A stretch of DNA of 64,000 nucleotides, taken from Bdellovibrionales bacterium. GTDB taxonomy: Bacteria > Bdellovibrionota > Bdellovibrionia > Bdellovibrionales > UBA1609. A program made the position numbers and the translations under genes. The notes under the pieces were generated by a model. The model did not search any database and had not been told where the DNA came from. It saw only the letters and a program-made list of their open reading frames with translations. How positions within the stretch are numbered: position 1 is the stretch's first letter; each line of letters opens with the position of its first letter. The stretch covers positions 1,227,388 to 1,291,387 of the forward strand of contig OZ251471.1 in NCBI GenBank assembly GCA_965242635.1, read 5' to 3'. Shown here piece by piece: positions 5,841 through 42,765 of this stretch.

Positions 5841-8252
5841 TCAGGTGGTGAGGATGTTGAGGATGCGGCCGGGTTTGTAGATCACTTTTTTAATGGTCCT
5901 GCCCTCAAGTGCGTTTTGAATGCTCTTTTTTGCCCTGGCCTTTTGTAAAACAAGAGCCTCCTCCTCTTTGTTGGAGCAGGAAATGGCCCCTTTGGTTTTG
6001 CCGTTCACCTGCACCCCTATTTCCGTTTCCTTCTCCTCAAAATCCTCTTCCTGCTGAAAAGCCGGCCAAGAGGCCAGCGACACAAAACTTTTCCCCCCCA
6101 AGACAGCCCATATCTCTTCGGCCAAGTGAGGGGCAAAAGGCTGAATCAGCTGGCTCAATGTTTTTAACACTTCGTGGTTTTGAATGTTCTTGCGGTAAAG
6201 GGTGTTTACAAAAATCATAAGCTGGCTTATGGCCGTGTTAAAGTTAAATGTTTCAATGTCTTCCGTCACTTTATTTATGGTGTGGTTGAGAAGAGTGTTC
6301 AGCTCTTCTGTCATCTTCCCTTTTTCCGGTCGCACCTGACCCTTGTCATCAAAGCAAAGTCGCCATATTCTCTGAAGAAAGCGCCGGCTCCCCTCAATAC
6401 CCTGTGAGGACCAGGGTTTGTCTTTCTCCACAGGTCCCAAAAAACTGATATGCACCCGAATGGTGTCGGCCCCGTATTGCTCCCTCAGCAAATCAGGATT
6501 AACAACATTGCCACGGGACTTGGACATCTTTTGGCTGTCCTCCCCCAAAATCATGCCCTGATGCTTAAGCTCTTTAAAAGGCTCTTCATGAGACACCATT
6601 TTACAGTCGTATAAAAATTTTTGCCAAAACCGGGCATAAAGCAGATGCCCCACCGTGTGCTCCGGCCCCCCGACATAAAGATCCACCGGCATCCAGTATT
6701 TTTGTTGTTCAAAATCAAAAGGCTCTTTGTCATTATGAGGATCCGTATAACGCAAAAAATACCAGGAAGAGCCGGCATAACCCGGCATGGTGCTGTCTTC
6801 TCTCTGACCCACCGCCCCCGTTTTGGGATCCGTGTATTTTATAAAGCCCTCTTCTCTTGCCAAAGGAGGCTCCCCCTCCTCAGAAGGAGCGTAGTGGACT
6901 GTCTTGGGCAAAGTCACAGGCAGTTCCCCTTCTGCCACAGCTTTCGCCCCCTCCCTGAAATGCACTATGGGAAAAGGCTCCCCCCAGTATCTTTGTCGGG
7001 AAAACACCCAGTCTTTTAATTTATACTGTGTTTCCCTTTGGCCATACCGGGTTTTTTCCAGCTGATGAATGGTTTTTTCAATCGCCTCTTTGTTGCCAAG
7101 GCCGTTTAAAAACGAAGAATTGATATGAGGGCCGTCCCCGGTCCAAGCTGTGTCCTCTCCGTCAGGTTTTTTTATCACCTGTGTAATGGGGAGATGAAAG
7201 GCCTGGGCAAAGGCAAAATCCCTTTCATCATGGGCTGGCACCGCCATAATGGCACCCGTGCCATAGTCCATTAACACATAGTCCGCCACATAAATGGGAA
7301 TACTCTCTTTGGTGAAAGGGTGCAAAACAAAGGCCCCTGTATCCACCCCGGTTTTGCCTGTCCCCTTTTTTCTTTCCACATCAGACATGTGCCGTGCTTT
7401 TTCCTGATAGCTCCTGACAGCCGGTTTTTGTTTGTCCGTTGTAATGGTTTCCACCAAAGGGTGCTCCGGGGAAAGAACCATAAAAGTCACCCCAAAAAGA
7501 GTGTCCGGACGGGTGGTGAACACCTCAATGGACACCTCTGAATGATTTTTCACAGGGAACAAGATTTTTGCCCCTTCGCTTTTTCCGATCCAGTTTTTTT
7601 GTCCCTCTATGGTTCTCTCCGGCCAATTCAAGTGTTTTAGACTTTCAAGGAGTCTCTCTGCGTATTTTGTGATGGCCAGCATCCACTGCCGGACAGGCTT
7701 TTTGACGACAGGGTGTCCCCCTCTCTCACTTTTGCCATCGATAACCTCCTCATTGGCCAAAATGGTCTTAAGGGCCGGACACCAGTTCACAGGCGTTTTT
7801 TTCCGGTAAGCCAGCTGAGCTTTAAAAAACTTGAGAAATAAAAACTGAGTCCACCGGTAATACTTGGGTGAACAGGTGTTGACCTCCCGACTCCAGTCAA
7901 AACTGTAGCCAAAGGATTTGAGTTGAAGGCGAAAATTTTGAATGGCCTGATGGGTTATAACAGAAGGATGAATACCCGTTTGAATGGCGTATTGCTCTGC
8001 CGGCAGGCCAAAAGCGTCCCAACCCATAGGGTGCAGGACATTAAACCCTCTGGCCCTTTTGTAACGGGCTATAATTTCTGTGGGAGTGTAAGAGGCCAAG
8101 TGACCTATGTGCAGGCCAGAACCCGAAGGATAGGGGAACATGCTGAGAGCGTAAAACTTGGGTTTTTTCCAATCTGTTTCCACCTTCCAGCATTGGCTTT
8201 CCTCCCATTTTTTTTGCCACTTTTTTTCCAAAGCCTTGTGATCAAAAGCCAT
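5841..8252 (-). CDS. leuS: Leucine--tRNA ligase
   Basis: The N-terminus FYALSMFPYPSGSGLHIGHL carries the HIGH motif. KMSKS is present (QKMSKSRGN), and the length is about 800 aa. Confidence 0.97.
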   Translation of the reverse strand: MAFDHKALEKKWQKKWEESQCWKVETDWKKPKFYALSMFPYPSGSGLHIGHLASYTPTEIIARYKRARGFNVLHPMGWDAFGLPAEQYAIQTGIHPSVITHQAIQNFRLQLKSFGYSFDWSREVNTCSPKYYRWTQFLFLKFFKAQLAYRKKTPVNWCPALKTILANEEVIDGKSERGGHPVVKKPVRQWMLAITKYAERLLESLKHLNWPERTIEGQKNWIGKSEGAKILFPVKNHSEVSIEVFTTRPDTLFGVTFMVLSPEHPLVETITTDKQKPAVRSYQEKARHMSDVERKKGTGKTGVDTGAFVLHPFTKESIPIYVADYVLMDYGTGAIMAVPAHDERDFAFAQAFHLPITQVIKKPDGEDTAWTGDGPHINSSFLNGLGNKEAIEKTIHQLEKTRYGQRETQYKLKDWVFSRQRYWGEPFPIVHFREGAKAVAEGELPVTLPKTVHYAPSEEGEPPLAREEGFIKYTDPKTGAVGQREDSTMPGYAGSSWYFLRYTDPHNDKEPFDFEQQKYWMPVDLYVGGPEHTVGHLLYARFWQKFLYDCKMVSHEEPFKELKHQGMILGEDSQKMSKSRGNVVNPDLLREQYGADTIRVHISFLGPVEKDKPWSSQGIEGSRRFLQRIWRLCFDDKGQVRPEKGKMTEELNTLLNHTINKVTEDIETFNFNTAISQLMIFVNTLYRKNIQNHEVLKTLSQLIQPFAPHLAEEIWAVLGGKSFVSLASWPAFQQEEDFEEKETEIGVQVNGKTKGAISCSNKEEEALVLQKARAKKSIQNALEGRTIKKVIYKPGRILNILTT

Positions 8253-34356: not shown

Positions 34357-34443
34357 TGGTGCCCCGGGGGAGACTTGAACTCCCACGACCTTTCGGCCAT
34401 ACGATTTTGAGTCGCACGCGTCTGCCAATTCCGCCACCGGGGC
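34357..34443 (-). tRNA. tRNA-Leu (CAA), type II with a long variable arm
   Basis: The reverse strand reads GCCCCGGTGGCGGAATTGGCAGACGCGTGCGACTCAAAATCGTATGGCCGAAAGGTCGTGGGAGTTCAAGTCTCCCCCGGGGCACCA. The anticodon loop is CTCAAAA. Confidence 0.9.
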
Positions 34444-34606: not shown

Positions 34607-34956
34607 AGCTTTTTTTGGGCCTCATGGGGGTGACAGGTCAACTTGGACATGGTGAGGGACCTCCTGGATATGCTTTTCTTTGGGCCTCATGGGGGGACAG
34701 GTTCAGCAGATCTCTCAGCAGATCTCTCAGGATCGAAAATTGCAGGAGATCGGCCCAAAAAGGAAAAAAATTTCACTACTGTCAAAAAAAAAGACAGTTT
34801 TGGCTTTTTTGGGCTTTCCCGCTGGCCGGCATGGGGCATAAAAATTCTTAATGATTTCAATAAGATACAATAAAAAATTCCTTTTCCGGCAAAAATGTTG
34901 TGGATTTTGCAAGTATATTGGGCAGAAACCAATTTTTTTCAGGAGGTAAACAAAAA

Positions 34957-36027
34957 ATGCAAAAAACTATTATCCTTTTAATGGGATGTCTTTTTTCTCT
35001 GTCCATGTGGGCAGAAGAAGGTCCTGTTATTACAGAACAAGCGGAGGCTATTGCCCAGTCTGAGGCAGAGCCGAAGGTGGTGATTTTAAACAACCAGCAG
35101 GTGGATCAGAAGTCCGCCCATGATCAAAAGGCTCAGGTGTCCAATCAGCCTGTGGTCCGGGTTATGGGGACTCCCGTTTCCATGACTTATGCGGCTGAGT
35201 TGAAAAAGTCCCGTCAGGACGCAGAACTTCAGACAGAACAAAAAATTGTGGAAAAACTGGAAAGCTCCAGGCTCAGGGACGAGCAGGAGCGCCTTAACAA
35301 GTTGTTTGTTTCCAAAACCGGAACACTTGTTTCTTCCAAAACCGTGGCTGTGGCTCCGGAAAGCCATGCCATTCAGGCCACAACTGTTTCCACCATCAGT
35401 GATTCTACAGAGGAAAAGATTTACGCTGGAATCCAGGTGGGTCAGTCTTCCAACTTCACCAATGTTAAAAACCTGACTTCTTATGGAAGTTTTGGTGCCT
35501 CTGCGGGTGTGATCAGCAGAGCTGGTTTGATTTTGGAAAGTTCTGTTTTCTTTTCACAGCACCAGTTGGATCACTCCAATGATTACAACAACAACATGGA
35601 CAACCTGGGTGTGTCCAACATAACAGACTTATACCAAGTATCTGGTTTGCTGGCTCTGAAATACACACCTTCTTCCAGCCGGTTCAAGCCTTATGTGGGT
35701 GCCTTTGTGGCCTATAACTACTGGATGTATCAGGCGGATTCAGATTATATTTGTGATTATTACAGCAGTAAAAGCTGTGGTGATTACACCAAATCGGATG
35801 GTGTGGATATAGGGCCTGTTGTGGGTATGGACTTTTTTCTAAACAACAAAGTGTCTTTGGGCTTTAACATGATGGTGAGCGTAAGAAACATATACAACAA
35901 CCGCTCTGACAAATATGAAGCCCATGAGTATGCGTATGACCCTTATCATTACGAAGACGAGAGCTATATCAAAATGGAAGAGACCCATTGGCTTATTGCC
36001 TCCTTAAATGCCAAACTGTATTTCTAA
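34957..36027 (+). CDS. Putative outer-membrane beta-barrel protein
   Basis: An AGGAGG-like SD precedes the ATG. It has a signal peptide (MQKTIILLMGCLFSLSMWA), an alternating aromatic/Gly-rich C-terminal half, and a terminal ...LNAKLYF. Confidence 0.6.
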   Translation: MQKTIILLMGCLFSLSMWAEEGPVITEQAEAIAQSEAEPKVVILNNQQVDQKSAHDQKAQVSNQPVVRVMGTPVSMTYAAELKKSRQDAELQTEQKIVEKLESSRLRDEQERLNKLFVSKTGTLVSSKTVAVAPESHAIQATTVSTISDSTEEKIYAGIQVGQSSNFTNVKNLTSYGSFGASAGVISRAGLILESSVFFSQHQLDHSNDYNNNMDNLGVSNITDLYQVSGLLALKYTPSSSRFKPYVGAFVAYNYWMYQADSDYICDYYSSKSCGDYTKSDGVDIGPVVGMDFFLNNKVSLGFNMMVSVRNIYNNRSDKYEAHEYAYDPYHYEDESYIKMEETHWLIASLNAKLYF

Positions 36028-36052
36028 GAACTCTTGTCTCTTCCTGTATCGG

Positions 36053-36085
36053 GAGCCGGCTGTTTTCAGCCGGCTCTTTTTTTTT
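36053..36085 (+). terminator. Rho-independent terminator
   Basis: A perfect 9-bp stem (GAGCCGGCT / AGCCGGCTC) with a 6-nt loop is followed by T9. Confidence 0.75.
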
Positions 36086-36233
36086 GGCCTTTTGACCTGT
36101 TTTTCGCTGTTTTTGGGATTTTTAACCTGTTTTTTGCTTGATTTGGGATAAAAAACGGCGTAAAATGGCCTGATATGTATAAAAATTAGGTTTTTTCTTA
36201 ATTTTTGGGTAAAAACCGGTGTTCAATGGTCAC

Positions 36234-39200
36234 ATGATGTATAAAAAACGAATTATTAAACTGCCAGAAAATAGCCATACTTTCCTGTTTGGTGTGCGGG
36301 GGAGTGGCAAAACCGCTCTTTTAAACAGGAGATTTCCCTCTCCAAAGTCACTCCATATTGATCTGTTGGATGAATCCCTTTATCAAAGCCTGCTTTCTGA
36401 TGTGGCTCAGTTTTATGAAACAGTCAGTGCTTTTAAAGAGGGTGGTGTGATTATTGTGGATGAAATTCAAAAAATGCCACGGCTTTTAAATGAGGTGCAC
36501 CGCCTTATTGAAGAATCCTCCAGAGGGGAGGCCCCTCCCCGCCAGTTTATTCTGACTGGTTCCAGTGCAAGAAAGCTCAAAGCTCCTGGGGTAAACTTAT
36601 TGGCAGGACGAGCTGGTAAAACAACCCTTCATCCTTTTGTTCCGGAAGAGTTGGGCGAAGACTTTAATTTAAACAGTGCTTTACAGTATGGCCTCTTGCC
36701 GATTGTGTGGTCTCATCACGACCGGGAATTCAAATTAAAAGCTTATGCTGAGGAGTATTTAAAAGAGGAAATTCAGGCCATGGCTTTAGTGAGAAATTTG
36801 CCCGATTTTGCCCGATTTTTGGAAGTGGCTGGCCTCTATCATGGCCAGGCGGTAAATATGAGTGCCATTTCAAGGGAATGCCAAACTCCGCAAAAAGCCG
36901 TGCGGGATTATTTTTCCATATTGGAAGACACCCTGCTGGGTTTTTTTCTGCCTGCTTACACCCCACGGCTACAGTTAAGAGAGAGAAAACACAAAAAATT
37001 TTATTTTATTGATCCAGGATTGGCACGCACGCTAAGAAAAGACTTTGGACCTGTGTCCCATACAGAGAAAGGCTCTCTTTTTGAAGGGCTGACAGCTCAA
37101 ATTTTAAGGGCTTACAGGGATTATAACTCTCTTTTTGAAGAGATGTTTTACTGGTCTCCGGTGGATTCTCAAAAAACAGAGGTGGATTTTCTGTTAAGAA
37201 AGGGAGAGGATTTAACGGCCATTGAAGTCAAAGCCCGAAGCCAAATATCCTCTTCAGAGTGTAAAGGTCTTAAAGCCATTCAAAAACTCAAGGCGGTAAA
37301 AAAAAGAATTTTGGTTTATATGGGGTCAGCTGTAAGAAGAACAGAAGATGGCATTGATATATGGCCTTTTGATTTTTTTTGCCAAAACCTGAAGGAAGGC
37401 CATTTTAATGTTCCGGTGGTTGGGACAAAGAAAAGCAAAAAAAGCCCTGATCCTGTTTTAGCTGTCCCTTCCAAGATTCTCACTCCCAAAGAATTACAGA
37501 TTCCCCCTCCAGCCGATGAGAAAAAATTTGAAGAGTTATGTCTTGATTTATATAGACAGGAATTTGGAGGATCTGCTCAACTACATGGCAGAAAAGGCCA
37601 AAAACAACATGGGGTGGATATTGTTATTCAGCACGAATTGGCAAACAGTATAGTCAACATAGGTGTCCAGTGCAAAAAAAGAGAGCAGAAAAATGGAAAA
37701 ATCACAGAAAAAGAACTATTGCAGGAAGTGGAAAAAGCCAAAAATCTCAAACCAGCTTTGAATAAATTTATTTTGGCCACCACCTGCCAAAGAGATGCCA
37801 ATATCCAAAAAACAGCCTGGCAACTTACAACAGAACATAAAAAAGACAACCTTTTTTCTGTAGAAATACACAGCTGGGATGAAATCAAAGAACTTTTAGA
37901 TAAATACCTTGAAATATATCAAAAATACTATGGTAATGTAGTTTTAAAAACAGAGTCAAACAAACAGCAATCTACAGACAAAGTAGTCCCTGCTTTTAAT
38001 GCAGAAATCATAAAAAAGATAAAAAATGACAGTCACCATGCAGAGCTTAAAATGATACACAGCTTACTCAACAAAAAGCCCAAAACAGCTCTTGATTTAT
38101 TGGAAAAATTTAAACAAGATTTGGATAAATTAAATGACAAAGTAAAATACAAAGTTTTAATCTATATGGCTGATGCAAAACACAGAATGAAGGATGAAAA
38201 AACAGCTTTTGATTTGACTATTGACGCTTTGGAATTCAATAATAAGGATGAAAATGCTCTTATAAATTGTGCTTTCGCTTATTTGATGAAAGGTGATTTG
38301 GAAAAATCCAAAAAATATCTCGAAAAAACCAGAGCACTCAACCCTCGAAAAACAGAAGCCTATAACCTGGATATTCAAATCCAATTTAGCGAAGGAAAAA
38401 GTATCAAAGAAATTGTGGCAAACCTGCCTGAAGATATAAAAAATCAAGCTCAAATAGCTCAATTACTGGCTGGTTTCAGTATAAATCAAAAAGATTACAA
38501 ATCAGCAGAAAAATGGGCAAAGATTTTTTACACTAAAATTGATCAAAAAAACCTTATGGAACTCTCCACTTATGCTGATCTTATGCTGAAAATCATCACA
38601 AAAGATCCCAATATCTATAAAACAAGAGAAATCACCAATCATCAGTATCAAAGTGAGCTTAAAGAAATTGTCTCTCTATATAAAAAAATATTTTCAGAAA
38701 GTGAATACAATGAAATAAGAGAGATTAATGCCAACTTATATGTAAATTATGCCATAGCTTTGGAAATGAAAGGGGAACTGGATAAGGCTATAGATATACT
38801 AAAAAAAGGTGAAAATCTTTTTCCTGAAGATTATAACTTAAAGCACCTTCTTATTCATGGTTTTTTAAAGAAAAAGGCCAAAAATAGCAAAGTGATGATT
38901 CAAGATCAAAAGCCCGATCTTTATCACAGCCAAATTTTTACATTATCCAAAACAGAAGATTGTAATGATATTGTGGATATAATAAATAAAATCCCGGAAG
39001 AAAAAAGAAACGCGTTTGCGTGGAGCGTACTGGCAGATATCAAATTTTTTAATGAAAATAGCCCAAACGAAGGTATTGAGATTTTGCAAAAAACCAGCCG
39101 TTTAAAGCACTTTAACATTGATGATCAATTTATAATAAAAGAAGCACTTATAGATAAATTTATAAAAATGGATCAAGCAGAAAAAGCAGATCAGGAGCTG

Positions 39201-41390
39201 AATGATTTGTGCAAACTAAGCCCTGAAAACCCTATAATACCTGTTATAAAATCAAAAATATATGCTCTTAAAGGTGACACTGAAAAACAAAACCAGTGCT
39301 TGGAAAAAGCTCTTGAGATGGTTCCGGATAATCCCGATAATGAGTGGTTTCTCTACTTTTTGGCTAAAGAACTTTATAACTGCAAAATGTATGCAGAATG
39401 TGAACCTCTTTTTGAAAATCTTATAGAAAATAACCTGTATAATCCGGATATTTTTACTCTTTTGCATATTTATTTTGAAAATGGTCAAAACCAAAAAGCC
39501 ATAAAATTGGCAGAAACTTTGAATAAAAAATTTCCTCATCGGCTGGATCCTGTTAATATCCTGTTTCTTATTTATGAAGACCTTGGAGATAGAGAAAAAG
39601 CCATTAAATACTATGAGGATTTTATGAAACACAATCCTCAAAATGAATTGATCAAAATAGAACTGGCTTTGGCTTATATAAGAAATGAACAATCAGATAA
39701 AGCCAAAGCATTATTAAACAAACCTTTTAACCTCAACCTGTTATCCATAAATGAGACAGGCCGGCTTGCCAGTGTTTACAGCCACACCGGCCAGTTAAAG
39801 AAAGCTTTGGATATTTTATACCAAAGTATCCGAAAACACCCTTCCAATAAAGATCTGCAACATCTCTACTCAGGTTTATATCTTTTTGGAGAAAAAAAAG
39901 AAAAAATATTTTTATCTCCATCAGAAAAAGTAGCTATAGATTGTTATTTAAAAATTCAAGAAGTAAAAACTGCTGAAACAACAGATTTCACTATTGAAAA
40001 ATCAGCAGATATATATGCCCCAGATCACCCTTTTGCTCAAAAATTTTTAGGCAAAATTAAAGGTGATACAGTTCAGCATGAACACAAACAATATAAAATT
40101 TTGGAAATAAAAAATAAATACCTTCATAAACTTCATGAGATTATGAGCAATGCCGAAAAAAGATTCCCTGTCGACCCTTTTATCAAAACGGCTATTTTGC
40201 CAAAGTTGGCTGAAAAAGAAGATATAGCTCAAGCTCTTAAACCAATGATCCCGGATACCACTCAGCAAAGAGAAAAGGTGTTTCAGTATTATAAACAGGG
40301 AAGAATGACTATTGGTTCTATGTCGCGTATTATCGGCCTGCATCCTATTGAGATGATAGCTACTCTAAGTAATAAGTCCTCAGAGCACAAGTTTATATCC
40401 TCCTTTGTGGGTTTGAAAAATTATAAAACCTCACAGGAAAATCTTAATAAAACCATGGATATTATTATGGATATTTCCTCTCTTTTTACAATGCATGTGA
40501 TAAAAATGGAAAAATATTTTGAAGAAAGCTCTTTTAATCTTTGTATATGCCCATCCACTATAGAGTCTATAAGAAACCTGATACAAAAAATGAAACAACA
40601 TTCTCAAGATGGATTGCTGACAGGTGGTTGGGACAAGCAGGGTAAACTCATCACCAGCCATACCCCGCCGGAAATTGTCCAAAAAAACCTGCATTTTCTG
40701 GAACATATAATAAAATGGGCTAAAGAAGTTTGTGCCATAAAACCTGTACCCGTGGATTATGTAATGAACCGTGATAAAAAATCAAAGTTGATCCCTGCAA
40801 TAGGAAAAGAATTTTTAGACCCTTTATTATTCGCTCATAATAAAAAAAATACCGTTCTTTTATCTGAAGATGGAGTATTGGGTGCTTTATCCAAAAATAA
40901 AAATGAACTTAATGTTCTCAGAGTGCGTCTATGGGACATAATACATCACTTTAAAAATCAGTCGATTATAAATGAGAAACAGGCTGTTCATTTCACAGCA
41001 GAACTGATTAAGCTAAACCAAGTGTATATTCCAGTGGACCATAAATTATTACTTGTTTTATTAAAATCAGCCAATTATTCCATTACTGATATTGATTTTC
41101 AGAGGGGCTTGTACTTTATGGGGCCTGTTTCCAATCTACATGGAGTGATTGAGGTTTTATCCCAGTTCCTTAAAGAGCTGTTTCAAGAACCAGCCCTTTT
41201 GCTGTATCAAAAAGAGCAAATCACCCAGGAAGTATTAAATAAGGCTTACTTGGGAAGGAGGGGGATTGCCCCCCTTGATGTAGCAAGCAGGATCAAGCAA
41301 TCAGTTCAGGCTAAAACCATTTTACTGCCATTTCATCAAAAAGCGATAGAAAACAGCATTGATTACTGGTTAAAAAACAAAATATATTGA
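36234..41390 (+). CDS. Giant multidomain protein: AAA_14/DUF4143-type ATPase + Mrr-like REase + TPR-like array + GreA/B-C-like + PIN-like
   Basis: Residue numbers count from the track ORF start at 36219. Walker A GVRGSGKT (aa 25-32). Walker B VIIVDEIQ (77-84). DUF4143-type EVDFLL..AIEVK (321-338). FEELCLDLY..HGVDIVI..GVQCKK (437-487). Helical repeats (~600-1225). VAIDCYLKIQE..PFAQKFLGKIKGDTVQ..YKILEIKNKYL (1238-1302). IIMDISSL / STIESI / DPLLFAH..VLLSEDGVL (1415-1553). The start could be GTG 36219 or ATG 36234/36237. Confidence 0.8.
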   Translation: MMYKKRIIKLPENSHTFLFGVRGSGKTALLNRRFPSPKSLHIDLLDESLYQSLLSDVAQFYETVSAFKEGGVIIVDEIQKMPRLLNEVHRLIEESSRGEAPPRQFILTGSSARKLKAPGVNLLAGRAGKTTLHPFVPEELGEDFNLNSALQYGLLPIVWSHHDREFKLKAYAEEYLKEEIQAMALVRNLPDFARFLEVAGLYHGQAVNMSAISRECQTPQKAVRDYFSILEDTLLGFFLPAYTPRLQLRERKHKKFYFIDPGLARTLRKDFGPVSHTEKGSLFEGLTAQILRAYRDYNSLFEEMFYWSPVDSQKTEVDFLLRKGEDLTAIEVKARSQISSSECKGLKAIQKLKAVKKRILVYMGSAVRRTEDGIDIWPFDFFCQNLKEGHFNVPVVGTKKSKKSPDPVLAVPSKILTPKELQIPPPADEKKFEELCLDLYRQEFGGSAQLHGRKGQKQHGVDIVIQHELANSIVNIGVQCKKREQKNGKITEKELLQEVEKAKNLKPALNKFILATTCQRDANIQKTAWQLTTEHKKDNLFSVEIHSWDEIKELLDKYLEIYQKYYGNVVLKTESNKQQSTDKVVPAFNAEIIKKIKNDSHHAELKMIHSLLNKKPKTALDLLEKFKQDLDKLNDKVKYKVLIYMADAKHRMKDEKTAFDLTIDALEFNNKDENALINCAFAYLMKGDLEKSKKYLEKTRALNPRKTEAYNLDIQIQFSEGKSIKEIVANLPEDIKNQAQIAQLLAGFSINQKDYKSAEKWAKIFYTKIDQKNLMELSTYADLMLKIITKDPNIYKTREITNHQYQSELKEIVSLYKKIFSESEYNEIREINANLYVNYAIALEMKGELDKAIDILKKGENLFPEDYNLKHLLIHGFLKKKAKNSKVMIQDQKPDLYHSQIFTLSKTEDCNDIVDIINKIPEEKRNAFAWSVLADIKFFNENSPNEGIEILQKTSRLKHFNIDDQFIIKEALIDKFIKMDQAEKADQELNDLCKLSPENPIIPVIKSKIYALKGDTEKQNQCLEKALEMVPDNPDNEWFLYFLAKELYNCKMYAECEPLFENLIENNLYNPDIFTLLHIYFENGQNQKAIKLAETLNKKFPHRLDPVNILFLIYEDLGDREKAIKYYEDFMKHNPQNELIKIELALAYIRNEQSDKAKALLNKPFNLNLLSINETGRLASVYSHTGQLKKALDILYQSIRKHPSNKDLQHLYSGLYLFGEKKEKIFLSPSEKVAIDCYLKIQEVKTAETTDFTIEKSADIYAPDHPFAQKFLGKIKGDTVQHEHKQYKILEIKNKYLHKLHEIMSNAEKRFPVDPFIKTAILPKLAEKEDIAQALKPMIPDTTQQREKVFQYYKQGRMTIGSMSRIIGLHPIEMIATLSNKSSEHKFISSFVGLKNYKTSQENLNKTMDIIMDISSLFTMHVIKMEKYFEESSFNLCICPSTIESIRNLIQKMKQHSQDGLLTGGWDKQGKLITSHTPPEIVQKNLHFLEHIIKWAKEVCAIKPVPVDYVMNRDKKSKLIPAIGKEFLDPLLFAHNKKNTVLLSEDGVLGALSKNKNELNVLRVRLWDIIHHFKNQSIINEKQAVHFTAELIKLNQVYIPVDHKLLLVLLKSANYSITDIDFQRGLYFMGPVSNLHGVIEVLSQFLKELFQEPALLLYQKEQITQEVLNKAYLGRRGIAPLDVASRIKQSVQAKTILLPFHQKAIENSIDYWLKNKIY

Positions 41391-41478: not shown

Positions 41479-41994
41479 TTACAGGTGTGTGACTTTTATG
41501 GTTTCTTTGTTCCATTTTTTTGCAAGATACTCCACAATCAGTCGCCGATGGCAATGTTCAGGTTCATGTTCACTGCAGAGAAGACACCCCTGGTGCAGTG
41601 TGGTTTTTATACCCTGATCCTCAATTCGTCTTTGTTCCATAAGTCTCATGAATTTGTCCTCATAAATATTCCAATCCCCTTTATTCTTTTTGTATTCATC
41701 CAAAATGTCTTTTGTCGGAGCCATATCAGGAATATGAATGTAATCCATATTCACCAGTTGTTTTAAAAAAAATATAAGATCATTTTTTTTCGAAAACCCG
41801 GCCAGCTGAGACACATTATTCAGACGCACATCCACCACCCTCTTTGCCCCAGACCTTTTCAGTTTTTCGAAAAAATCCTTTGCGGTCTTTTTTGCAAAGC
41901 CAATGGTATAAATTTCAATAGTTTTCAAATCCCCTGCTCCTGTTATTGTGATAAAGTTCCCTTGTTTAAAGGGGATGAGTGTCCCCTCTTTCAT
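41479..41994 (-). CDS. DUF488 family protein (paralogue 2)
   Basis: IYTIGFAKKTAKDFFEKLKRSGAKRVVDVRL...CLLCSEHEPEHCHRRLIVEYL is the DUF488 signature. The start is uncertain (track ORF extends to 42039). Confidence 0.7.
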   Translation of the reverse strand: MKEGTLIPFKQGNFITITGAGDLKTIEIYTIGFAKKTAKDFFEKLKRSGAKRVVDVRLNNVSQLAGFSKKNDLIFFLKQLVNMDYIHIPDMAPTKDILDEYKKNKGDWNIYEDKFMRLMEQRRIEDQGIKTTLHQGCLLCSEHEPEHCHRRLIVEYLAKKWNKETIKVTHL

Positions 41995-42640
41995 CAAAAA
42001 CAACTCCTGACAGATCCGGCTGAATCCCTCTGACAGCATAAGAGGATTCTTTATAAGTATAGGCTATTTTTTGGGCCTGCCGGTCATAAGCCTCTTCAAC
42101 ACATTCTTTCTCTGTCCTGAACATATCAGGGTAAAGCCTGAATTTATCCATCAATGCTTTTTCCATTTCCTGATTCGTCCTGACAGAACCATCAGCAAAT
42201 ATATGTTTGATTTTCTCTTCTGAAAACCCGGTTTTATATGATAATTCACGGCAAACCAGAATCATCCGATGGCATTGCAATGGGTCTTTTTCGGAACACA
42301 TAAGTGCCATATTATGGGTTTCCAGTTTATTCCTGATCCGGTTCAGAGCAGATTGAAACCCTGATAATCGGGCCACCTGCCGGTATTGCAATTTCCCTTT
42401 GTTATCATAACAGTCGGGATGGCTGATTCGGCCTCCCAGCTCATGACCCATAAAAGAGTAAACAATGTCATTTTTATTTAACTCCTGTTCTATATTTTCC
42501 CTGTTAAACATCCTGCTGTATTTGCTGTAAGGTTGTGATCGAACATCCCCTATCTCCCGGACGGAGTGTTTGTTCAAAAGTTCAATAAAACTTTTTAAGG
42601 TGTGTGTGGAATGACCTATGGTGAAAAGAGTGTACTTCAT
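41966..42640 (-). CDS. DUF488 family protein (paralogue 1)
   Basis: MKYTLFTIGHSTHTLKSFIELLNKHSVREIGDVRSQPYS...ALMCSEKDPLQCHRMILV is the DUF488 signature. Confidence 0.78.
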   Translation of the reverse strand: MKYTLFTIGHSTHTLKSFIELLNKHSVREIGDVRSQPYSKYSRMFNRENIEQELNKNDIVYSFMGHELGGRISHPDCYDNKGKLQYRQVARLSGFQSALNRIRNKLETHNMALMCSEKDPLQCHRMILVCRELSYKTGFSEEKIKHIFADGSVRTNQEMEKALMDKFRLYPDMFRTEKECVEEAYDRQAQKIAYTYKESSYAVRGIQPDLSGVVFDERGDTHPL

Positions 42641-42765
42641 ATATTTATTCTCCTTTGAAAGAGCAAAATCTGATCCTTTTATATACACACCTAAAACGGC
42701 GAATCTTTAATGATACTTGCCACAAATTTATAGCAATGATCTTCAAATTTTTCTGCTGAATAAAG

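What the first reader, a model, noticed from the sequence alone, without database searches (positions are those of the whole stretch)
36219..41390. One ~1720-residue ORF fuses an ATPase, two restriction-endonuclease-fold modules, a TPR array, a GreA/B-C-like domain and a PIN-like domain: candidate single-polypeptide conflict system
Seen directly: an uninterrupted 5.17-kb ORF in a visibly A+T-rich island (about 36.1-42.7 kb), entered just after a strong terminator at 36053-36085. Residue numbers count from 36219. (i) aa 7-392 is an AAA_14-type P-loop ATPase (GVRGSGKT; VIIVDEIQ) followed by a DUF4143-type PD-(D/E)xK-like module (EVDFLL...AIEVK). (ii) aa ~436-560 looks like an Mrr_cat core (FEELCLDLY...HGVD467IVI...GVQ484CK486K). 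(iii) aa ~600-1225 is a helical, TPR-like repeat region. (iv) aa 1238-1302, VAIDCYLKIQEVKTAETTDFTIEKSADIYAPDHPFAQKFLGKIKGDTVQHEHKQYKILEIKNKYL, fits the GreA/GreB C-terminal pattern (compare E. coli GreA ...[23 protein letters not shown]...[33 protein letters not shown], quoted from memory). (v) aa ~1410-1560 shows PIN-like acidic residues (IIMD1418ISSL; STIE1449SI; D1534PLLFAH...LLSED1551GVL). Established knowledge: NTPase + TPR sensor + nuclease effector is the logic of STAND/Avs-type antiphage proteins, and the GreA/B C-domain docks on RNA polymerase. I recall a TPR + GreA/B-C + PIN combination being catalogued in silico in surveys of NTP-dependent conflict systems, but this needs checking. 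As far as I know it has not been characterised experimentally, and not with this ATPase and Mrr-like N-terminal extension. Inference: a nucleotide-gated sensor, possibly RNAP-associated, with DNase and RNase effectors. By eye the first ~1.2 kb (the ATPase part) is more G+C-rich than the remainder, which suggests a recent fusion of a DUF4143-ATPase gene to a REase-TPR-GreC-PIN gene.
Basis: partly seen in the sequence, partly recalled or inferred. Interest (0 to 1): 0.86.

Follow-up and report, generated by a model that had tools for sequence, protein, structure and literature searches.

The report
ATPase-fused TPR–GreA/B-C–PIN defence protein
This 1,723-residue gene is a real member of a catalogued family of predicted RNA-polymerase-watching antiphage proteins (one relative is experimentally validated), and its one new feature is a permanently attached ATP-driven nuclease partner that related bacteria encode as the gene immediately upstream.

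Summary
The ORF (36219-41390, +) is real and uninterrupted, and all six domain calls hold up. They are AAA_14 ATPase + DUF4143 REase, an Mrr-like REase, a TPR array, a GreA/B-C domain (sub-threshold in Pfam, confirmed by structure) and the dedicated Pfam "PIN-TPR-GreABC" domain. Residues 433-1723 match "REase+TPR+GreAB-C+PIN", a very common architecture of the TGP conflict systems catalogued by Kaur et al. 2021. One TGP protein (Agp of E. coli Bab/Agp) has since been shown to mediate abortive infection, so "uncharacterised" is outdated.

The ATPase is the new part. In a clade of small-genome Bdellovibrionales MAGs, 13 of 14 assessable loci carry this Orc1/Cdc6-like AAA+-REase (PADLOC candidate PDC-S01). 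It is either the gene immediately upstream or fused, and fused and split forms interchanged at least four times. TGP relatives in other phyla lack it, and the 2021 catalogue does not list it.

"Recent fusion" is refuted. The fusion is shared by relatives with only 51-61% core identity, and the GC step occurs in every relative, split or fused.

Verdict: a new variant of a known kind. It is probably an antiphage sensor-effector, and the ATPase's role is unknown. Interest is moderate.

The parts
36051..36088 (+). Intrinsic terminator of the upstream gene, which sets the left boundary of the transcription unit
   Evidence: 12-bp stem with 8 G-C pairs, 4-nt loop and a T-run
36138..36166 (+). Sigma-70-like promoter match upstream of the ORF (weak evidence)
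   Evidence: TTGATT-17-TAAAAT, 9 of 12 matches. Such matches in the region are not enriched over shuffles
36219..41390 (+). Whole ORF, 1723 codons from the GTG at 36219. The likely true start is the ATG at 36234, giving 1718 aa
   Evidence: The identical database protein P0001 is 1718 aa and starts MMYKKR, and homologues start MIYKKR
36276..36713 (+). AAA+ P-loop ATPase core (Pfam AAA_14). Walker A is GVRGSGK31T and Walker B is VIIVD81E82IQ
   Evidence: AAA_14 E 4.6e-17. Both motifs are >=97% conserved in 136 relatives. Best fold matches are Orc1/Cdc6, RuvB and RFC
36714..37058 (+). Helical lid plus winged-helix-like region of the ATPase module (N-terminal part of Pfam DUF4143)
   Evidence: DUF4143 spans aa 183-339. 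The AlphaFold2 model aligns to Orc1/Cdc6-DNA complexes over ~340 columns
37059..37397 (+). PD-(D/E)xK nuclease domain of DUF4143, with E321-V-D323 ... E336-V-K338
   Evidence: DUF4143 E 3.4e-29, with weak NERD and UPF0102 hits. The EVDF and A.E.K motifs are conserved
37398..37514 (+). Fusion linker (aa 394-432). It corresponds to the ATPase C-terminal tail and the start of the TGP gene in split relatives, and is predicted to be disordered
   Evidence: pLDDT <50 at model residues 401-414. Junction comparison with split and fused relatives
37515..37946 (+). Mrr-like restriction-endonuclease domain, the variable N-terminal effector position of TGP proteins. Key residues are E438, D467, Q484 and K486
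   Evidence: Mrr_cat 30.4 bits, above the gathering score of 21. E, D and Q-C-K are invariant in 32 relatives down to 17% identity. The same domain heads NACHT and AAA_16 proteins
38016..39893 (+). TPR array (aa ~600-1225), with a hypervariable or mosaic middle segment at aa ~801-1050 (nt ~38619-39368)
   Evidence: TPR_14, TPR_19, TPR_2, TPR_12 and others. Lowest clade-wide identity falls in aa 801-1000. Mosaic pattern against P0002 and P0003
39918..40118 (+). GreA/GreB C-terminal-like (FKBP-like) domain, the predicted RNA-polymerase docking module
   Evidence: PF01272 E 0.002, 18.5 bits (below the gathering score), covering the full profile. Foldseek matches GreA 9a7t_B, 2pn0_A and Gfh1 2f23_A/3aoh_X with probability 1.00 and rmsd 2.3-3.2 A
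40119..40418 (+). Helical connector with weak UPF0175/HTH-like similarity
   Evidence: UPF0175 E 0.0012, below the gathering score. Helices at model residues 73-157
40419..40898 (+). PIN nuclease domain of the TGP-specific family (PF20698). Acidic residues are D1418, D1534 and D1551
   Evidence: PF20698 53.7 bits, above the gathering score of 27.8. D1551 is invariant, and D1418 and D1534 are >=90% conserved. Fold matches to the PAE2754, SMG6 and EST1A PIN domains
40899..41387 (+). C-terminal all-helical domain conserved in the family, function unknown
   Evidence: pLDDT 95-98 helices. Conserved across TGP relatives

Best explanation
**What it is.** The gene encodes a TPR-GreA/B-C-PIN (TGP) conflict protein of the common REase+TPR+GreAB-C+PIN architecture. 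It is covalently fused at its N-terminus to an Orc1/Cdc6-like AAA+ ATPase that carries its own PD-(D/E)xK nuclease (AAA_14+DUF4143, PADLOC candidate PDC-S01).

**Shown here**
- Membership of both families.
- Intact catalytic motifs in the ATPase and all three nuclease domains.
- In one clade of Bdellovibrionales, the ATPase and the TGP gene form a conserved two-gene cassette that has repeatedly switched between split and fused forms.

**Inferred by homology to Agp of Bab/Agp and from the Kaur et al. model**
- The protein is an antiphage sensor-effector.
- The GreA/B-C domain docks at the secondary channel of RNA polymerase and reports phage takeover of transcription.
- The PIN domain cuts RNA.
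- The TPR array, whose middle segment is hypervariable, mediates recognition or self-assembly.
- Activation releases the Mrr-like DNase, giving abortive infection or destruction of phage DNA.

**Inferred from the partnership only**
- The ATPase-nuclease is a physically associated subunit. It adds an ATP-dependent step at the DNA, such as gating, DNA sensing or loading.
- It is the slowly evolving constant part. The TGP core is the fast-evolving part.
For: - **Domains and folds:**
- **Catalytic residue conservation:**
  - REase E/D/QxK are invariant in 32 sequences down to 17% identity, and the PIN aspartates are conserved.
  - Walker A and B and the DUF4143 EVD...ExK motif are conserved in 136 ATPases.
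- **Family literature:**
  - The constant TPR+GreA/B-C+PIN core with variable N-terminal effectors, REase included, is described in PMC8195603.
  - Bab/Agp gives an Abi phenotype against T5 and Drexlerviridae phages. It is lost with GreA/B-C mutants S628L and L634P and with PIN mutant D762N.
- **Partnership with the ATPase:**
  - Of 14 assessable Bdellovibrionales loci, 3 are fused and 10 have the ATPase gene ending 25-222 nt upstream on the same strand.
  - Independent gene calls confirm this for P0006 and P0010.
  - Seven full-length fused proteins at 39-100% identity appear in the protein database.
  - Fused forms occupy at least four separate places in the tree.
  - The fused linker is colinear with the ATPase tail plus the TGP N-terminus.
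  - There is no in-frame Met between aa 381 and 612, so the fusion is obligate.
- **Rates:** ATPase mean p-distance is 0.30 against 0.49 for the core. Query versus P0002 is 91% against 61%.
- **Context:** defence-island neighbours at homologue loci include type I and type III R-M, ThsB-TIR, SocA, AbiE, RES-Xre and CBASS.
Against: - No experiment exists on this protein or on any ATPase-linked relative.
- The only PDC-S01 representative tested that I found was not among the four candidates reported to protect E. coli against T4, T5 or T7. The ATPase family therefore has no validated defence role.
- Very similar ATPase paralogues (61-73% identity) are standalone genes in housekeeping neighbourhoods, several per genome. 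They intermingle with TGP-linked ones in the tree, so the ATPase is not dedicated to TGP.
- One clade member (P0008/L014) has no adjacent ATPase. TGP proteins in all other phyla sampled also work without one.
- In Bab/Agp the PIN mutant also destabilised the protein, and no Bab-independent activity of Agp was found. RNA cleavage and RNAP docking remain models.
- The mirror-tree correlation (r = 0.83) would also arise from shared species phylogeny.
- The window's own neighbours are only weakly defence-like (a DUF488 pair).
Confidence: 0.62

Rival explanations
1. STAND/Avs-like machine. The N-terminal NTPase is the central switch. The TPR array binds a specific phage protein. Ligand binding drives ATP-dependent oligomerisation, which activates the REase and PIN effectors. 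The GreA/B-C domain is an accessory or a second sensor.
For: - Foldseek finds NLRC4 and Avs4 among lower-ranked matches to the ATPase module (ranks 23-27).
- The Aravind laboratory labels AAA_14+DUF4143-type proteins 'nSTAND3+REase-DUF4143'.
- The same Mrr-like domain heads NACHT and AAA_16 proteins.
- The mid-TPR segment is hypervariable and mosaic, as expected for a ligand sensor.
Against: - NACHT and nSTAND models score 13-14 bits, far below their thresholds.
- The best fold matches are Orc1/Cdc6, RuvB and RFC.
- The domain order is NTPase-REase-effector-TPR, not effector-NTPase-sensor.
- The NTPase is a separate polypeptide in most relatives and is absent from TGP proteins in other phyla. 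These include the functional Agp.
Confidence: 0.2
2. Two independent genes that merely travel together. The PDC-S01-type ATPase-nuclease and the TGP protein are separate single-gene systems sharing a mobile cassette. The fusions are neutral read-through accidents with no functional coupling.
For: - PDC-S01 is reported as the fourth most common (candidate) defence gene in prokaryotes and is a single-gene candidate.
- Standalone paralogues exist in the same genomes.
- TGP systems are described as mostly standalone.
- One clade member lacks the ATPase.
Against: - Position, strand and spacing are the same in 10 split loci.
- There are at least four independent fused/split transitions, each keeping both halves intact with conserved catalytic motifs at 39-61% core identity.
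- None of the other neighbours is conserved.
- Repeated retention of a fusion between unrelated toxic nucleases is unlikely if it were neutral.
Confidence: 0.12
3. Not immunity. The protein is a housekeeping or addiction module acting on the cell's own stalled RNA polymerase. It could perform transcription-coupled clearance or quality control, or behave as a toxin-like selfish element that stabilises the island.
For: - The GreA/B-C fold belongs to housekeeping transcript-cleavage factors.
- The ATPase part is highly conserved, and some paralogues lie among housekeeping genes.
- Over-expression of Bab/Agp is lethal.
Against: - There is no synteny between genomes.
- The gene is present or absent, and sometimes duplicated, within close relatives.
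- The sensor region evolves fast and is mosaic.
- Homologue loci have defence-island contexts.
- A family member has a demonstrated Abi phenotype.
Confidence: 0.06

Closest known systems
TPR-GreA/B-C-PIN (TGP) conflict systems, REase+TPR+GreAB-C+PIN architecture (Kaur, Iyer, Burroughs & Aravind 2021, eLife, PMC8195603; Pfam PF20698)
   Same: Residues 433-1723 have the same domains in the same order: an N-terminal REase effector, a TPR array, GreA/B-C and the family-specific PIN. The catalytic residues are conserved. The core evolves fast, as that paper describes.
   Different: - The catalogue describes mostly standalone genes with few conserved neighbours. Its source table has no DUF4143 entry and no Bdellovibrionales member.
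- Here an AAA_14+DUF4143 ATPase-nuclease is a conserved upstream partner or is fused.
Agp of the Bab/Agp abortive-infection system, E. coli ECOR25 (Ibarlosa et al. 2024, bioRxiv 10.1101/2024.11.07.622273)
   Same: It has the same TPR-GreA/B-C-PIN core. It is the only experimentally studied member, and its antiphage activity depends on the GreA/B-C domain.
   Different: - Agp (1094 aa) carries an N-terminal amyloid motif that signals to a separate pore-forming protein, Bab.
- The window protein instead carries an enzymatic Mrr-like REase in that position, plus the ATPase module.
- I did not look for a Bab-like gene or an amyloid motif here. Direct sequence comparison with Agp was not possible with the tools.
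PDC-S01 (PADLOC candidate): AAA_14 + DUF4143 ATPase-PD-(D/E)xK proteins
   Same: Residues 1-392 match PDC-S01 models (E 1e-45) and both Pfam domains, with intact Walker and nuclease motifs.
   Different: - PDC-S01 is defined as a single-gene candidate with no validated function.
- Here it is tied to, or fused with, a 1300-residue TGP protein.
Avs/STAND antiviral ATPases such as Avs4 (PDB 8dgf)
   Same: Overall vocabulary: an NTPase, TPR-type repeats and nuclease effectors. The same Mrr-like domain heads NACHT and AAA_16 proteins. There is a weak fold match to Avs4 and NLRC4.
   Different: - The ATPase is Orc1/Cdc6/RuvB-like by fold and fails the STAND Pfam models.
- The domain order differs.
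- The ATPase is ancestrally a separate protein.
GreA, GreB and Gfh1 transcript-cleavage and inhibitor factors
   Same: The C-terminal globular domain fold that docks on RNA polymerase is present.
   Different: The N-terminal coiled-coil finger that reaches the polymerase active site is absent. The domain is embedded in a 1700-residue protein, between the TPR array and the PIN domain.

Membership tests
TPR-GreA/B-C-PIN (TGP) systems | Family-specific PIN domain (Pfam PF20698) with conserved acidic residues | tested here: met
   53.7 bits against a gathering score of 27.8. D1418, D1534 and D1551 are conserved. PIN fold matches.
TPR-GreA/B-C-PIN (TGP) systems | GreA/GreB C-terminal-type domain immediately upstream of the PIN region | tested here: met
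   The Pfam hit is below threshold (18.5 against 26.9 bits) but covers the full profile. The AlphaFold2 model matches GreA, GreB and Gfh1 C-domains with probability 1.00 and rmsd 2.3-3.2 A.
TPR-GreA/B-C-PIN (TGP) systems | Long TPR array preceding GreA/B-C, with a variable effector or adaptor domain at the N-terminus | tested here: met
   TPR families span aa 609-1222. The Mrr-like REase at aa 433-576 corresponds to the catalogued 'REase+TPR+GreAB-C+PIN' architecture.
TPR-GreA/B-C-PIN (TGP) systems | Usually a standalone gene without conserved partners (descriptive, not strictly defining) | tested here: not met
   A conserved upstream or fused AAA_14+DUF4143 ATPase is present in 13 of 14 clade loci. 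This is the respect in which the gene is a variant.
TPR-GreA/B-C-PIN (TGP) systems | Antiphage (Abi) activity and RNA-polymerase engagement | not testable with these tools
   Shown only for Agp, by genetics. No biochemical evidence of RNAP binding exists for any member.
AAA_14 + DUF4143 ATPase-nuclease (PDC-S01) | AAA_14 P-loop domain with Walker A and B, followed by a DUF4143 PD-(D/E)xK domain | tested here: met
   AAA_14 64.3 bits and DUF4143 104 bits, both above their gathering scores. PDC-S01 E 1e-45. Motifs conserved.
Mrr_cat restriction endonuclease fold | PD-(D/E)xK core with a D ... (Q/E)xK catalytic motif | tested here: met
   30.4 bits against a gathering score of 21. D467 and Q484-C-K486 are invariant across 32 relatives. 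The alpha/beta core is modelled at pLDDT >90. No dedicated fold search of this domain alone was run.
STAND NTPases (NACHT / NB-ARC / Avs) | STAND-type NTPase module recognised by family models | tested here: not met
   NACHT scores 13.6 bits (gathering score 26.7). nSTAND3 gives no hit for the query and 12.9 bits for paralogue P0083. Top fold matches are Orc1/Cdc6, RuvB and RFC, with NLRC4 and Avs4 only at ranks 23-27.
STAND NTPases (NACHT / NB-ARC / Avs) | Tripartite order: effector, then NTPase, then repeat sensor, in one polypeptide | tested here: not met
   The order here is NTPase, REase, REase effector, TPR, GreA/B-C, PIN. The NTPase is a separate gene in most relatives.

The most novel reading that the evidence does not exclude
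The fusion is a natural 'Rosetta stone'. It would show that the very common but functionally unvalidated PDC-S01 ATPase-nucleases can act as ATP-gated DNA-engaging subunits of an RNA-polymerase-surveillance immune complex. In this reading the protein performs transcription-coupled restriction:
- GreA/B-C recognises a phage-hijacked or stalled polymerase.
- PIN cuts the transcript.
- The Orc1/Cdc6-like AAA+ module loads on the template at that site and licenses the two PD-(D/E)xK nucleases to cut the DNA.
Probability: 0.15. Interest if true: 0.75.

Novelty: new variant of a known kind. Interest (0 to 1): 0.5.

Why it matters
TGP proteins are widespread, yet only one has been studied, and how it senses infection is unknown. 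PDC-S01-type ATPase-nucleases are reported as the fourth most common candidate defence gene in prokaryotes and have no demonstrated function.

A lineage in which the two are an obligate pair, repeatedly fused, gives a concrete and testable hypothesis for both: that they interact physically, and that ATP-dependent DNA engagement is coupled to polymerase surveillance. It also supplies matched natural split and fused versions for biochemistry.

The finding does not reveal a new kind of system. The core architecture, the predicted mechanism and the defence role were already published.

Tried and rejected
- **Recent fusion inferred from GC.** Rejected. The ATPase is 3-8 GC points above the core in all 13 relatives, split or fused, and the fusion is shared at 51-61% core identity.
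- **DUF488 pair (41479-42688, PADLOC PDC-M45C/B) as partners.** Rejected. Neither they nor any other window neighbour occurs at any of about 100 homologue loci.
- **Length class of ATPase homologues (~385 vs ~440 aa) as a proxy for TGP linkage.** Rejected. Some linked ATPases are short (L009, L022), and the classes intermingle in the tree.
- **TGP-linked ATPases as a distinct clade.** Not supported by the NJ ordering.
- **The ATPase C-terminal tail in split loci is a degenerate duplicate of the TGP 5' end.** This would explain split/fused switching. It is only suggestive: summed shuffle z = 3.0, clear in 3 of 8 non-independent loci.
- **Searches that led nowhere:**
  - The 32-sequence alignment was too diverse for the locus scan.
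  - The exact database copy P0001 had no contig on record.
  - The 2020 eLife paper does not mention GreA; the term matched 'great'.
  - A literature search for AAA_14 returned noise.
  - A sequence search of the N-terminal 595 aa against PDB found nothing.
  - Viral contigs hold only the Mrr-like domain in other proteins.
  - PADLOC v2 has no model for the TGP core.
- **Island boundaries.** No flanking direct repeats were found.

Full report
**Observation**

The window holds one uninterrupted ORF at 36219-41390 on the + strand, 1723 codons with no in-frame stop. It follows a strong intrinsic terminator at 36051-36078.

Base composition falls from about 0.44 G+C in the first 1.2 kb of the ORF to about 0.31 in the remainder. 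The window as a whole is 0.45.

The likely true start is the ATG at 36234. The identical database protein (P0001, 1718 aa, from a 2.0-Mb contig) and all homologues begin there.

**Domains**

- AAA_14: E 4.6e-17.
- DUF4143: E 3.4e-29.
- Mrr_cat: 30.4 bits, above its gathering score of 21.
- Many TPR families over aa 609-1222.
- GreA_GreB C-terminal domain: only 18.5 bits, below the threshold of 26.9, but it covers profile positions 2-76 of 77.
- Pfam PF20698, 'PIN domain associated with the TPR-GreAB-C-PIN system': 53.7 bits.

I tested the weak GreA/B-C call by structure. An AlphaFold2 model of aa 1228-1723, built on 52 homologues, has mean pLDDT 91.
- Its first domain matches the C-domains of GreA, GreA/B and Gfh1 with Foldseek probability 1.00 and rmsd 2.3-3.2 A over about 76 residues.
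- A later domain matches PIN domains: PAE2754, SMG6 and EST1A.

A model of aa 6-600 has pLDDT 88.
- Its best fold matches are archaeal Orc1/Cdc6 bound to DNA, RuvB and RFC subunits. NLRC4 and Avs4 appear only lower down.
- It shows a disordered linker before a well-folded Mrr-like domain.

Catalytic motifs are conserved.
- The Mrr-like E, D and QxK residues are invariant across 32 relatives down to 17% identity, and the PIN aspartates are conserved.
- Walker A and B and the DUF4143 EVD...ExK motif are conserved in 136 ATPase relatives.

**What is already known**

The constant core of TPR, GreA/B-C and this PIN, with a variable N-terminal effector, was described by Kaur, Iyer, Burroughs and Aravind in 2021 (PMC8195603).
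- Their source table lists 'REase+TPR+GreAB-C+PIN' as a very common architecture, with 906 string occurrences.
- They proposed that GreA/B-C docks on the polymerase secondary channel, that PIN cuts the extruded transcript, and that the N-terminal effector is a back-up suicide arm.

A 2024 preprint shows that Agp, a TGP protein of E. coli ECOR25, forms an abortive-infection system with the pore-former Bab. It acts against T5 and some Drexlerviridae phages.
- Activity is abolished by two GreA/B-C point mutations modelled on GreA-RNAP contact mutants.
- Activity is also abolished by a PIN active-site mutation, which however lowers protein level as well.

Residues 433-1723 of the window protein are therefore an ordinary member of a known family that has one experimentally studied member.

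**What is new**

I searched a large protein collection with the non-ATPase part.
- It returned about 37 close relatives (36-57% identity) and many distant ones.
- Most are about 1300 aa and lack an ATPase.
- Seven (P0001-P0004, P0012, P0018, P0025) carry AAA_14+DUF4143 at the N-terminus.

Gene contexts for two unfused relatives showed an AAA_14+DUF4143 gene directly upstream on the same strand.

A scan of one genome per species gave 78 loci. I scored them with an HMM built from the fused N-termini.
- Among 14 assessable loci of the Bdellovibrionales clade, 3 are fused and 10 have the ATPase gene ending 25-222 nt upstream.
- Only L014 (P0008) lacks it.
- None of the full-length relatives from other phyla (20-31% identity) has such a gene within 8 kb.

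A junction-spanning query against 1.84 billion representative proteins found only one other sequence that crosses the junction (P0200). The fusion is therefore confined to this clade.

The 2021 source table contains no DUF4143 entry in the TGP section and no Bdellovibrionales TGP.

**Fusion history**

In a neighbour-joining tree of the core, the query, P0002, P0003 and P0004 form a fused clade. P0012, P0018, P0025 and the truncated P0037 are fused leaves nested among split forms. This implies at least four split/fused transitions, with the caveat that the tree has no bootstrap.

The fused linker is colinear with the ATPase C-terminal tail followed by the TGP N-terminus of split relatives.

There is no in-frame Met between aa 381 and 612, so the window protein cannot easily be made as two parts.

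That inference fails on two counts.
- The ATPase part is 3-8 GC points richer than the core in all 13 relatives, split or fused.
- The fusion predates divergence to 51-61% core identity.

**Nature of the ATPase**

It matches the PADLOC candidate PDC-S01 (E 1e-45).
- This is a single-gene candidate made of an ATPase fused to a PD-(D/E)xK domain. It is reported as the fourth most common defence candidate in prokaryotes and is still awaiting validation.
- One representative was among eight candidates tested in E. coli and was not among the four reported as protective.

The ATPase part is much more conserved than the core.
- Mean p-distance is 0.30 against 0.49.
- Query versus P0002 is 91% against 61%.

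More than a hundred relatives at 61-89% identity exist, several per genome. Some are standalone genes in housekeeping neighbourhoods, and they intermingle with TGP-linked ones in a tree.

ATPase and core distances correlate across linked pairs (r = 0.83, 0 of 2000 permutations). Shared species history would give the same result.

STAND family models do not reach threshold.

**Context**

Homologue loci sit among type I and type III restriction-modification, ThsB-TIR, SocA, AbiE, RES-Xre, CBASS and transposase genes.

Nothing is syntenic between genomes, and none of the window's neighbours recurs at any homologue locus.

The relatives come from MAGs labelled Bdellovibrionales, with chromosomes of 1.4-2.5 Mb. 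Public sources name these proteins only 'hypothetical protein' or 'ATP-binding protein'.

**Mechanism**

The best-supported reading is an antiphage sensor-effector of the TGP type.
- *Shown:* family membership, intact active sites and the conserved partnership.
- *Inferred by homology:* docking on RNA polymerase through GreA/B-C, RNA cleavage by PIN, DNA cleavage by the Mrr-like effector, and an abortive-infection outcome.
- *Inferred from anatomy only:* the Orc1/Cdc6-like ATPase-nuclease is a physically associated, ATP-dependent DNA-engaging or gating subunit.

The mid-TPR segment (aa 801-1050) is the least conserved part. It is mosaic between the query and its nearest relative, which fits a recognition surface.

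The rivals are set out with their tests in the structured fields:
- a STAND-like ligand-gated oligomeriser;
- two independent genes sharing a cassette;
- a non-immune polymerase-clearance or addiction module.

**Verdict**

The thing itself is a new variant of a known kind.

Its value lies in linking two widespread but poorly understood defence-associated families through a recurrent natural fusion. The core architecture, its predicted mechanism and a defence phenotype were already published.

Noticed in passing
window 41479-42039 (-) and 41966-42688 (-): Two overlapping DUF488 genes converge on the big ORF. They match PADLOC candidate components PDC-M45C (E 1e-66) and PDC-M45B (E 4e-65). No PDC-M45A match was found in the adjacent ORFs. 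They are absent from all homologue loci, so they are a separate candidate system.
   Followed up: partly
window ~38619-39368 (aa ~801-1050 of the ORF): Mosaic TPR segment. The query is 14-36% identical to its nearest relative P0002 here, against 58-96% elsewhere. Yet it is 45-55% identical to the more distant P0003 in the same stretch. This suggests cassette replacement or strong diversifying selection. Clade-wide, aa 801-1000 is the least conserved stretch.
   Followed up: partly
L010 ~7720-8060; L019 ~6520-6860; L002 ~7680-8040: In split loci the ATPase C-terminal tail (…IKESIF-LKPS-IIxPSxNKKQLEEY…) resembles the TGP 5' end (…KENIIMSLKPSDFQIPPPENEEQFE…), including in-frame residues upstream of its Met. 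It looks like a degenerate junction duplication. That could drive split/fused switching by deletion between the copies. Support is weak: summed shuffle z = 3.0, clear in 3 of 8 loci.
   Followed up: partly
L009 3-3578 (-); L008 and L020 (same chromosome, OZ241967.1): Some genomes carry two copies of the system. L009 has a second, fused copy in divergent orientation about 3 kb from a split copy. One chromosome carries both a fused (L008) and a split (L020) paralogue.
   Followed up: partly
L085 6001-7197; L086 6001-7149: Standalone paralogues of the ATPase (72-73% identical to the fused ATPase) lie next to housekeeping genes (guaA/guaB, radical SAM) or toxin-antitoxin genes. There are several copies per ~2-Mb genome. 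The ATPase family is expanded in this lineage independently of TGP.
   Followed up: partly
window 40218-40376 (aa 1334-1386): A helical module between GreA/B-C and PIN has weak similarity to UPF0175 and HTH_28 (E 0.0012, below threshold). It is not mentioned in the parts of the family description that I read. It may be a small DNA- or RNA-binding or connector domain.
   Followed up: no
window 34357-34443 (-): tRNA-Leu(CAA) lies 1.8 kb upstream of the ORF, near where G+C begins to fall. It is a possible integration landmark for the A+T-rich segment, but no flanking direct repeats were found.
   Followed up: no
window 34900-36027 (+): A 375-aa ORF between the tRNA and the big gene has only weak outer-membrane beta-barrel similarity (OmpW and OMP_b-brl_2, E ~0.003). 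It ends at the strong terminator.
   Followed up: no
protein P0025, residues ~430-470: One fused homologue has a ~27-residue insertion that repeats the 'FEK' start of the REase domain (…MKFEKPYPKETIKTKRIAWAPVDGMQFEKLCLDLY…). This is another sign of junction instability.
   Followed up: no
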